A stretch of DNA of 64,000 nt from the NCBI RefSeq assembly GCF_013315695.1, contig NZ_CP054353.1; one strand, given 5' to 3'. A program made the position numbers. Within the stretch, counting starts at the first letter, position 1; the number at the start of each line of letters is the position of its first letter. This DNA comes from Escherichia coli. Its GTDB lineage: Bacteria; Pseudomonadota; Gammaproteobacteria; Enterobacterales; Enterobacteriaceae. Positions 52,201-54,077 of this stretch are shown here, in pieces.

Positions 52201-54077
52201 GCAACTTCAATTCTGTTTTGCGTGCCTGCTCCAGATTTTGCGATGTTTTTTTGCCCAGCACACTGAGAACGTGAGATACTCACAACTGTATATAAATACA
52301 GTTACAGATTTACTTTCTTTGCAATCGATATCACATGGAGTGGGCAATGAACGAACATCATCAACCTTTTGAAGAGATACGGCATTATGGCACTGAAGGG
52401 CAAGAATTTTGGTCAGCGAGAGAATTGGCACCGTTACTGGATTATCGGGACTGGCGCAATTTTCAAAAGGTACTGGCCCGCGCGACTCAAGCGTGCGAAG
52501 CCAGCAATCAAGCTGCATCTGACCATTTCGTTGAAACCACCAAAATGGTTGTATTAGGTTCAGGGGCTCAACGAGAACTTGAAGATGTTCATCTCTCCCG
52601 CTATGCCTGTTACCTGGTAGTACAAAACGGCGACCCTGCGAAACCGGTTATTGCGGTAGGGCAAACTTATTTTGCTATCCAGACCCGACGGCAGGAGCTG
52701 GCTGACGATGAAGCTTTCAGGCAACTTCGTGAAGACGAAAAGCGTCTTTTTCTGAGAAATGAGTTGAAAGAACATAACAAACAATTAGTTGAGGCAGCGC
52801 AGCAGCTGGGGTAGCGACAGCTATCGATTTCGCCATATTTCAGAATCATGGTTACCGGGGACTGTATGGTGGATTAGATCAGAAAGCCATCCATCAGCGG
52901 AAGGGGCTGAAAAAGAGTCAGAAGATCCTGGATCATATGGGTTCAACAGAACTGGCGGCTAATCTCTTTCGAGCTACCCAAACAGAAGAAAAACTCAAGC
53001 GGGATGGCGTGAATTCAAAACAGCAAGCTAACACCACACACTTTGACGTGGGTCGCAAGGTGAGGCAAACCATTCAGGAACTTGGCGGAACCATGCCTGA
53101 GGAGTTGCCGACCCCGCAGGTCAGCATCAAGCAGTTGGAAAACAGTGTAAAAATTACAGAGAAAAAATAGCAGAAACTAAAAGCTCTTTTTGATGATTGA
53201 GACACCCGATGCGTAAGCCAAGGTCCAGGTGCGGTGAACACAATGGCTAAACATTGCACCTTTCTTTTCCACCCTCAATTTTAACCTATTTTTTCTTATG
53301 CATTTTCTCAGACAAGAAGTCAGAAGAATACATCTACGCTACAGAAAATAGCGATTTCACATAACTAAAAGTTATCAATTTCCTCTCACCTTAAAAAATC
53401 TCAATCGTGACAATACGCACAAATCGCTACCCTGCCAGACAGATTTTTAGGGAGAGAACCATGCTGTTACACATTTTGTATTTGGTTGGCATTACTGCCG
53501 AAGCCATGACGGGGGCGCTGGCGGCCGGACGACGGCGCATGGATACATTTGGCGTAATTATTATTGCGACCGCCACCGCAATTGGCGGAGGGTCAGTGCG
53601 CGATATTCTGCTGGGCCACTATCCGCTCGGCTGGGTCAAACACCCGGAATATGTGATTATTGTCGCTACCGCCGCAGTACTCACCACTATCGTTGCTCCT
53701 GTAATGCCTTACCTGCGCAAAGTGTTTCTGGTGCTCGATGCGCTCGGACTGGTGGTCTTTTCTATCATTGGCGCACAGGTTGCACTGGATATGGGACACG
53801 GCCCGATCATTGCCGTTGTCGCAGCTGTGACGACCGGCGTATTTGGCGGCGTTTTGCGCGATATGTTCTGTAAACGCATCCCGCTGGTATTCCAGAAAGA
53901 ATTGTATGCCGGTGTCTCATTTGCCTCCGCCGTGCTGTACATCGCGCTGCAACACTATGTTTCTAACCATGATGTGGTAATTATCTCCACCCTGGTATTC
54001 GGCTTTTTTGCCCGCTTACTGGCGCTACGCCTTAAGCTGGGATTACCGGTCTTTTACTACAGCCACGAAGGTCACTA

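What the first reader, a model, noticed from the sequence alone, without database searches (positions are those of the whole stretch)
52286..53170. dinD is split by a single-base frameshift although its LexA box is intact
Seen in sequence: the frame starting MNEHHQPFEEIRHYG... terminates at 52812..52814 (AAQQLG-stop), while a second frame is open from 52793 to 53170 and continues through ...AAGVATAIDFAIFQNHGYRGLYGG...MGSTELAANLF...KITEKK. The two frames overlap over 52793..52811, which is the signature of a one-nucleotide deletion (or equivalent) in a formerly continuous gene of about 274 codons. The upstream SOS operator ctgtatataaatacag is perfect. This is either a genuine pseudogene of a LexA-regulated gene or a sequencing error in a G-rich run (cagcagctgggg).
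Basis: seen in the sequence. Interest (0 to 1): 0.45.

Follow-up and report, generated by a model that had tools for sequence, protein, structure and literature searches.

The report
Real, lineage-fixed dinD frameshift pseudogene
The SOS-regulated gene dinD in this E. coli lineage is broken by a genuine, inherited one-base deletion (not a sequencing error), an ordinary loss of a dispensable gene that NCBI's pipeline already flags as "frameshifted" in matching genomes.

Summary
dinD (window 52347-53170, between yicC and yicG) is split into a 155-codon frame that stops at 52812-52814 and a second frame open over 52793-53170. An unchanged LexA box lies at 52286-52301.

The missing base is not in the G run. 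It is one A of codon 153 (CAA): intact CAGCAAGCT versus CAGCAGCT here, at window 52803-52805.

This is a real mutation. The window differs from its two closest RefSeq genomes at 14 and 17 sites over 64 kb, yet all three share the deletion. Five complete genomes carry the identical allele, and three checked are annotated "frameshifted". The exact 155-aa product occurs on at least 1000 public contigs. The nearest intact allele (strain LR-28) differs in the coding sequence only by this one base.

The predicted product keeps the Bro-N domain and a long helix. It loses residues 154-274, which are at least as conserved as the retained part, so loss of function is likely.

dinD is expendable. It is absent from about 13% of complete E. 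coli genomes and damaged in other ways elsewhere.

Side finding: ISL3-family elements repeatedly insert inside this LexA box, in about 4% of complete genomes, including a sub-lineage that carries this frameshift.

The finding is ordinary and of low interest.

The parts
52286..52301 (+). LexA (SOS) box CTGTATATAAATACAG of dinD, intact in the window
   Evidence: Read directly in the sequence. It is identical to the K-12 MG1655 dinD upstream region, and the 220-bp region upstream of the start differs from K-12 at only 4 alignment positions (2 substitutions, 2 one-base indels).
52290..52297 (.). ATATAAAT, the central spacer of the LexA box and the 8-bp target duplicated by ISL3-family insertions (ISEc53, ISKox3) in other genomes; unoccupied in the window
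   Evidence: The junctions read CTGTATATAAAT|GGGTCTTCCC... and ...GGGGAAGACCC|ATATAAATACAG in L015 and in EC-129. This junction is present in 224 of 5426 complete genomes.
52337..52340 (+). Shine-Dalgarno-like GGAG, 6 nt upstream of ATG 52347
   Evidence: Sequence. PGAP uses the same start codon in L001 and L002.
52347..53170 (+). The whole dinD pseudogene: 824 bp against 825 bp when intact
   Evidence: PGAP annotates 'dinD, DNA damage-inducible protein D, frameshifted' on identical sequence in AF3, MSB1_4I and MS 21-1. The only difference from the LR-28 coding sequence is one missing A.
52347..52814 (+). 5' fragment (frame A): 153 native residues, then Leu-Gly and stop TAG at 52812-52814. It contains the Bro-N domain (aa 10-103) and most of a predicted long helix (aa 100-153).
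   Evidence: Translation; Pfam PF02498, E 2.4e-11; NCBIfam NF008573 positions 6-160; AlphaFold2 model.
52803..52805 (+). Site of the 1-nt deletion: C-A-G here against C-A-A-G in intact alleles. One A of codon 153 (CAA, coding nt 458/459) is missing.
   Evidence: DNA alignments with intact alleles.
52805..53170 (+). 3' fragment (frame B, open from 52793): encodes native residues 154-274 and is out of frame by -1 relative to frame A
   Evidence: Translation; alignment to the K-12 and LR-28 DinD proteins; NCBIfam positions 159-279, E 4.6e-61.
53122..53137 (+). 16-nt CAGCATCAAGCAGTTG, complementary to tisAB RNA, in the now untranslated 3' part of the transcript
   Evidence: Exact match to the complement of the 16-mer reported in PMC2577331.

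Best explanation
This is a genuine, clonally inherited pseudogene of dinD. In the ancestor of one E. coli lineage, one A of codon 153 (CAA) was deleted. Translation from the normal start (52347) now runs through 153 native residues, adds Leu-Gly and stops at 52812-52814. The sequence for residues 154-274 lies in the -1 frame and is not translated as part of the protein. The promoter region and LexA operator are unchanged. The locus is therefore most likely still repressed by LexA and transcribed on DNA damage, but yields only a truncated protein (Bro-N domain plus helix) that lacks the conserved C-terminal half (inferred). Because that half is at least as conserved as the retained part, the truncated protein is most likely non-functional for DinD's reported activity, removal of RecA from postsynaptic filaments. 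The loss is tolerated because dinD is dispensable. Shown here: the lesion, its position, its inheritance across many independent assemblies, and the domain content of the fragments. Inferred: continued SOS-regulated transcription, loss of function, and neutrality.
For: 1) The deletion is located exactly by alignment, and the nearest intact allele (LR-28) differs in the coding sequence by this base alone.
2) The sequencing is independent. The window differs from MSB1_4I (Australia, rectal swab) at 14 sites and from AF3 (UK, blood) at 17 sites over 64 kb, and all three have the deletion.
3) Five RefSeq complete genomes have the identical 824-bp allele. PGAP marks it 'frameshifted' in the three checked.
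4) The exact 155-aa product is on at least 1000 contigs and is listed in 2217 index blocks. It appears in GenBank entries from KTE143, MS 21-1 and other assemblies.
5) Ten carrier loci are at least 99.8% identical to the window over 3.5-6.5 kb, whereas the nearest non-carriers are about 99.0% over 24 kb. This points to a single clone.
6) The site is an AA dinucleotide with no homopolymer of 5 or more nearby.
7) Family members are 272-281 aa across many genera. Residues 154-257 are 56% invariant against 40% for residues 1-103.
8) dinD is dispensable. It is absent, with yicC and yicG adjacent, in about 713 of 5426 complete genomes. Other lesions occur elsewhere: a 2-nt frameshift in O145, a 222-bp in-frame deletion, a prophage truncation and an interrupted copy. 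[quoted passage not shown]
9) A second hit in part of the same lineage, ISEc53 splitting the LexA box, fits relaxed selection.
Against: No expression or phenotype data were available, so loss of function is inferred. Apart from the IS insertion in a sub-lineage, no further substitutions have accumulated in the pseudogene relative to the nearest intact allele. The sequence therefore cannot itself show relaxed constraint, because the lesion is young. The retained fragment is a complete Bro-N domain with an intact ribosome-binding site and operator, so a residual or altered activity is not excluded. The AlphaFold2 model is of low confidence for the C-terminal half (pLDDT below 50), so domain boundaries there are uncertain.
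Confidence: 0.88

Rival explanations
1. Sequencing or assembly error: the source genome actually has an intact dinD, and one base was dropped during base-calling or polishing.
For: Single-base indels are a common error type in long-read assemblies. Some carrier assemblies show other split genes, such as ligB in two pieces in L014, L016 and L020, which suggests that some are error-prone.
Against: The identical deletion is present in the window and in many independently produced assemblies from different countries, projects and years. The site is an AA dinucleotide, not a homopolymer. All 10 carrier loci examined carry the same frameshift context.
Confidence: 0.01
2. Recoding: a programmed -1 ribosomal frameshift, or transcriptional slippage, in the 19-nt overlap (52793-52811) restores full-length DinD.
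For: The two frames overlap, and the required shift (-1) is the common direction for programmed frameshifts.
Against: No in-frame X_XXY_YYZ slippery heptamer occurs anywhere in frame A, and there is no homopolymer run suited to transcriptional slippage. The split arrangement is confined to one clonal lineage, while every other family member examined is a single ORF. The nearest allele is a plain single ORF that differs by one base.
Confidence: 0.01
3. Truncated but functional: the SOS-induced 155-aa Bro-N-plus-helix protein keeps a partial or altered activity (for example DNA binding, or interference with partners) and is maintained by selection in this lineage.
For: The complete Bro-N domain, the ribosome-binding site, the start codon and the LexA box are all retained. 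The cut falls at the end of a predicted helix rather than inside the confidently folded domain. The allele has persisted and spread to thousands of assemblies. The only dinD phenotype cited in the paper read here (PMC2577331) comes from an altered-function allele, pcsA68, not from a null.
Against: In a large part of the same lineage, ISEc53 has split the LexA box immediately upstream, and rearrangements have replaced the upstream DNA. That is not expected for a maintained regulated gene. The lost half is at least as conserved as the retained half. Complete absence of dinD is common. Clonal hitch-hiking explains the spread without any selection.
Confidence: 0.1

Closest known systems
E. coli K-12 dinD (b3645; pcsA), the LexA-regulated 'DNA damage-inducible protein D'
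   Same: Same locus (yicC-dinD-yicG-ligB), an identical LexA box and a nearly identical leader. Same family (NCBIfam NF008573, Bro-N N-terminal domain) and the same C-terminal sequence.
   Different: K-12 has one 274-codon ORF, whereas the window has a 1-nt deletion in codon 153. The window's allele also belongs to a different allelic class, with 119 nucleotide differences concentrated in the first 300 nt (aa 12-85 of the Bro-N domain).
Intact dinD allele of E. coli LR-28 (WP_001445348.1) and its exact-protein group
   Same: The coding sequence is identical apart from the single A. The encoded 274-aa protein is itself found on at least 1000 contigs.
   Different: It is intact. This is the presumable ancestral state of the window's allele.
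Other naturally damaged or missing dinD alleles in E. coli
   Same: Same gene, same dispensability, same kind of outcome. Examples are the O145 RM12367-C1 'frameshifted' copy (823 bp), a 90-aa truncated form on at least 1000 contigs, the strain H2 copy truncated by a prophage-like insertion, an interrupted copy in KFu019, and complete absence in about 13% of complete genomes.
   Different: These are independent lesions at other positions. The 222-bp in-frame deletion form (200 aa, RM13752) is still annotated as a gene.
rph-1 of E. coli K-12, a classic lineage-specific single-base frameshift (background knowledge)
   Same: It is a one-base deletion fixed in one lineage that truncates a non-essential gene, and it lies only two genes upstream in the same neighbourhood. 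K-12 is annotated 'truncated RNase PH', while the window's lineage has an intact 238-aa rph.
   Different: It is a different gene. rph-1 has a known polar effect on pyrE, whereas no downstream gene is obviously coupled to dinD.
Programmed frameshift genes (IS1 insAB', dnaX, prfB)
   Same: Two overlapping reading frames within one gene. An IS1 copy with an annotated programmed frameshift lies elsewhere in the window's lineage.
   Different: Those genes have conserved slippery sites, and the split is conserved across homologues. Here there is no slippery site, and the split occurs in one clone only.

Membership tests
DinD (NCBIfam NF008573 / PRK11525, DNA damage-inducible protein D) | Sequence match to the equivalog model above its cut-off (242 bits) | tested here: met
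   Fragment A alone scores 285.3 bits (positions 6-160). Fragment B scores 206.7 bits (positions 159-279). The repaired-equivalent allele (LR-28) scores 504.2 bits.
DinD (NCBIfam NF008573 / PRK11525, DNA damage-inducible protein D) | N-terminal Bro-N domain (PF02498) | tested here: met
   aa 10-103, E 2.4e-11, 44.6 bits against a cut-off of 25.6.
DinD (NCBIfam NF008573 / PRK11525, DNA damage-inducible protein D) | Orthologous position: yicC-dinD-yicG-ligB as in K-12 | tested here: met
   Annotated regions of AF3, MSB1_4I, LR-28 and MG1655.
DinD (NCBIfam NF008573 / PRK11525, DNA damage-inducible protein D) | LexA operator upstream (member of the SOS regulon) | tested here: met
   CTGTATATAAATACAG at 52286-52301 is identical to K-12. 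Binding and induction were not tested.
DinD (NCBIfam NF008573 / PRK11525, DNA damage-inducible protein D) | A single continuous ORF of about 272-281 codons | tested here: not met
   Stop at 52812-52814 after 155 codons, with the remainder in the -1 frame. It is therefore a pseudogene of the family, not a functional member.
DinD (NCBIfam NF008573 / PRK11525, DNA damage-inducible protein D) | Inhibition or disassembly of postsynaptic RecA filaments (Uranga et al. 2011, cited in PMC4849656) | not testable with these tools
   This is a biochemical property, and the primary paper is not held in the library.
Genuine frameshift pseudogene (as opposed to a sequencing artefact) | The same lesion in independently sequenced isolates | tested here: met
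   The window, AF3 and MSB1_4I are mutually distinct. Five complete genomes carry the allele and the product is on at least 1000 contigs.
Genuine frameshift pseudogene (as opposed to a sequencing artefact) | The lesion is not in an error-prone homopolymer | tested here: met
   AA to A within GCAGCAAGCT; no run of 5 or more nearby.
Programmed -1 ribosomal frameshift | Slippery heptamer X_XXY_YYZ in the overlap | tested here: not met
   None in frame A.
Programmed -1 ribosomal frameshift | Two-frame arrangement conserved among homologues | tested here: not met
   Homologues are single ORFs, and the split is confined to one clonal allele.

The most novel reading that the evidence does not exclude
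dinD inactivation may not be neutral decay but recurrent selection against DinD. The gene is lost or damaged by many independent routes in E. coli: this frameshift, a 2-nt frameshift, deletions, prophage truncation, and complete absence in about 13% of genomes. In about 4% of complete genomes, two different ISL3-family elements (ISKox3 and ISEc53) sit in exactly the same 8 bp inside its LexA box. This suggests either a site-specific IS hot-spot at an SOS operator or repeated selection for uncoupling dinD from the SOS response. DinD's match to a PADLOC candidate defence family (PDC-S13) and its presence inside type I R-M operons hint that it behaves as a costly, mobile, defence-like accessory gene.
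Probability: 0.15. Interest if true: 0.45.

Novelty: already known. Interest (0 to 1): 0.15.

Why it matters
It matters little. The result settles that the split dinD is a true, stable marker mutation of one E. coli clone and not a data error, so annotation as a pseudogene is correct. Biologically it adds one more example of a dispensable SOS gene being lost. DinD is cited as a negative modulator of RecA filaments, so carriers probably lack one of several redundant RecA off-switches, and dinD-null K-12 has no reported growth phenotype. The more useful by-product is the population picture. dinD is an accessory-like gene: it is patchily present, has mosaic alleles and is highly similar across distant genera. 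Its SOS box is a recurrent landing site for ISL3-family elements, which could be followed up as a case of IS targeting of a LexA operator.

Tried and rejected
- **Sequencing error in the G run.** Rejected. The missing base is an A in CAA, and the lesion is shared by many independent assemblies.
- **Programmed frameshift.** Rejected. There is no slippery heptamer and no conservation of the split.
- **A natural short DinD of about 155 aa.** Rejected. The family is uniformly 272-281 aa, and short forms in the protein clusters are E. coli truncations or partial contigs.
- **Structure route.** The AlphaFold2 model from a 28-sequence alignment had mean pLDDT 59. Only the Bro-N domain was confident and the C-terminal half was below 50. 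I therefore ran no fold search on it. There is no PDB relative by sequence.
- **Promoter and terminator scans.** The consensus scan of 52100-53420 found nothing, so I do not assign -35/-10 elements.
- **Primary DinD papers.** Uranga 2011 (PMC3190988) and Yasuda 1996 (PMC232646) are not held. Their content is cited only as quoted by PMC4849656 and PMC2577331.
- **Naming the lineage.** A literature search on strain names (MSB1_4I, KTE143, MS 21-1) gave nothing usable. No sequence type or phylogroup is assigned beyond noting that the nearest complete genomes (SMS-3-5 and others) are about 99.0% identical.
- **Prior literature.** Searches for dinD with pseudogene, ISKox3 with dinD, and PDC-S13 found no prior description.

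Full report
**Observation**

The window region is the E. coli yicC-dinD-yicG-ligB neighbourhood.
- Frame A starts at ATG 52347, which is preceded by GGAG 6 nt upstream. It reads MNEHHQPFEEIRHYG...VEAAQQLG and stops at TAG 52812-52814.
- Frame B has no stop from 52793 to 53170. It reads ...AGVATAIDFAIFQNHGYRGLYGG...MGSTELAANLF...KITEKK.
- The LexA box CTGTATATAAATACAG is at 52286-52301.
- The two ORFs are halves of one gene. They match positions 6-160 (E 5e-85) and 159-279 (E 5e-61) of NCBIfam's 288-position DinD equivalog, and they align end to end on the 274-aa K-12 and LR-28 proteins.

**Where the base is missing**

Alignment with intact alleles shows GCGCAGCAAGCTGGGG against GCGCAGCAGCTGGGG in the window. 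One A of codon 153 (CAA, coding nt 458/459) is gone, at window 52803-52805. Codon 153 becomes CAG, which still encodes Gln. It is followed by Leu, Gly and a stop. Across the whole coding sequence, this single base is the only difference from the intact allele of strain LR-28.

**Real mutation or artefact**

- Two RefSeq complete genomes match the 1051-bp dinD region at 100%: MSB1_4I (Australia, rectal swab) and AF3 (UK, blood culture). PGAP marks dinD as "frameshifted" in both.
- Over the full 64 kb, the window differs from MSB1_4I at 14 positions and from AF3 at 17. That makes three distinct genome sequences sharing the deletion.
- With the coding sequence alone as query, five complete genomes carry the identical 824-bp allele. 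MS 21-1 is one of them and is also annotated as frameshifted.
- The exact 155-aa product is on at least 1000 contigs and is listed in 2217 index blocks. GenBank entries include KTE143, MS 21-1 and other assemblies.
- Ten carrier loci are at least 99.8% identical to the window over 3.5-6.5 kb. The nearest non-carrier complete genomes are only about 99.0% identical over 24 kb.

The lesion is therefore a fixed marker of one globally sampled clone. The sequencing-error alternative is rejected.

**Recoding**

Restoring the frame would need a -1 shift inside 52793-52811. No X_XXY_YYZ heptamer lies in frame A, and there is no run suited to transcriptional slippage. The split is not conserved: other E. 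coli alleles and homologues from many genera are single ORFs of 272-281 codons. Programmed frameshifting is rejected.

**What is lost and what remains**

The promoter-leader region differs from K-12 at only 4 alignment positions in 220 bp, and the operator is identical. LexA-controlled transcription therefore probably continues; this is inferred, not tested.

The product keeps the Bro-N domain (aa 10-103; Pfam E 2.4e-11). It also keeps a predicted long helix, aa 100-153, from an AlphaFold2 model that is confident only for the Bro-N part. It loses residues 154-274. In a 28-sequence family alignment, residues 154-257 have 56% invariant columns against 40% for residues 1-103. The missing half is thus at least as constrained as the retained half, and loss of function is the most likely outcome (inferred).

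DinD is cited as a factor that helps remove RecA filaments from DNA (Uranga et al. 2011, as cited in PMC4849656). [quoted passage not shown] A residual activity of the truncated Bro-N protein cannot be excluded; I give it about 10%.

**Population context**

dinD behaves as an expendable, accessory-like gene.
- About 713 of 5426 complete genomes have no dinD. In these, yicC and yicG are separated by 251 bp, and window 52127-53286 is replaced by about 77 bp.
- Other lesions recur. They include a 2-nt frameshift in O145 and a 90-aa truncated form on at least 1000 contigs. There is also a 222-bp in-frame deletion, an interrupted copy and a prophage-like insertion that removes the 5' part.
- E. coli carries two allele classes that differ sharply in aa 12-85.
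- Homologues 75-85% identical occur in distant Gammaproteobacteria.
- The protein matches PADLOC candidate defence family PDC-S13 (E 1e-124) and phage family phrog_8036. DinD-domain genes have been noted inside type I R-M operons (PMC9881135).

**Side finding**

In many carriers of the frameshift, an 1885-bp ISEc53 sits inside the LexA box. It is an ISL3-like element with a ClbS/DfsB (DUF1706) passenger gene. It has duplicated ATATAAAT (window 52290-52297), and neither junction re-forms the operator.

A different element, a 1316-bp ISKox3 that is 84.5% identical over the transposase region, occupies the very same 8 bp in unrelated strains with an intact K-12-type dinD. A junction probe is matched in 224 of 5426 complete genomes from diverse sources. 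The window carries the unoccupied site. No paper in the library mentions this.

**Verdict**

The mutation is real and clonal, it is already flagged by PGAP, and it affects a dispensable gene. It is ordinary: interest 0.15, novelty "already known". The IS hot-spot in the SOS box is the only item here that might merit follow-up.

Noticed in passing
window 52290-52297 (unoccupied target); L013, L015, L016, L018-L020 at about 1047-2955; L021 888-2227; L023: ISL3-family elements insert precisely in the central ATATAAAT of the dinD LexA box with an 8-bp duplication, destroying the operator. Two different elements use the same site: a 1316-bp ISKox3, and an 1885-bp ISEc53 that carries a ClbS/DfsB (DUF1706) gene. 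The junction is present in 224 of 5426 complete E. coli genomes from diverse strains. In the frameshift lineage the element is found in both orientations.
   Followed up: partly
L022 (strain R3) 727-979 against window 52127-53286: About 13% of complete E. coli genomes (713 of 5426) lack dinD altogether. yicC and yicG are then 251 bp apart, and the roughly 1.16-kb dinD segment is replaced by about 77 bp of unrelated sequence.
   Followed up: partly
window 52380-52600 (dinD codons 12-85); L004 2761-3585: E. coli has two sharply different dinD allele classes. Against K-12 there are 119 nucleotide differences, 99 of them in the first 300 nt (the Bro-N domain), while the 3' two-thirds is nearly identical. 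This looks like a recombination mosaic.
   Followed up: partly
DinD protein (L003 3148-3969): DinD matches the PADLOC candidate defence family PDC-S13 (E 1e-124). It also matches the N-terminal third of a 'Type I specificity subunit' model (E 2e-117) and phage family phrog_8036 of unknown function. Homologues in distant genera (Amphritea, Microbulbifer, Pontibacterium) are 76-80% identical, which suggests horizontal transfer.
   Followed up: partly
L007 (RM13752) 1648-2250; L008 (strain H2) 2502-2666; L024 (O145 RM12367-C1) 348-1170: Other independent dinD lesions exist: a 200-aa form with a 222-bp in-frame deletion, still annotated as a gene; a copy whose 5' part is replaced by a prophage- or satellite-like insertion (Icd-like and AntA/AntB genes); and a 2-nt frameshift in O145.
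   Followed up: partly
window 11690-12292: Eleven of the 14-17 differences between the window and its two closest genomes cluster in about 600 bp inside a 5-kb YadA-like adhesin gene (window about 10025-15025). This is probably a recombination patch or repeat-associated variation.
   Followed up: no
window about 8872-9981: An IS1A copy abuts a 5'-truncated lipoprotein pseudogene (annotated DUF3251 / SadB-YajI family) just upstream of the YadA-like adhesin gene. This is taken from the annotation of the matching genomes.
   Followed up: no
window 53122-53137: The 16-nt sequence complementary to tisAB RNA, reported for the 3' end of K-12 dinD, is conserved. It now lies in the untranslated part of the transcript.
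   Followed up: no
L014, L018, L019 upstream of dinD; ligB in L014, L016, L019, L020 and L023: In some carriers the DNA upstream of the IS is not yicC but hlyE or a PerC-family gene, consistent with IS-mediated inversions. ligB is split or carries an internal stop in several carriers; this could be real or an assembly error and was not resolved.
   Followed up: no
window about 50420-51136 (rph): rph is intact (238 aa) in this lineage, unlike the well-known rph-1 frameshift of K-12 annotated as 'truncated RNase PH'.
   Followed up: no
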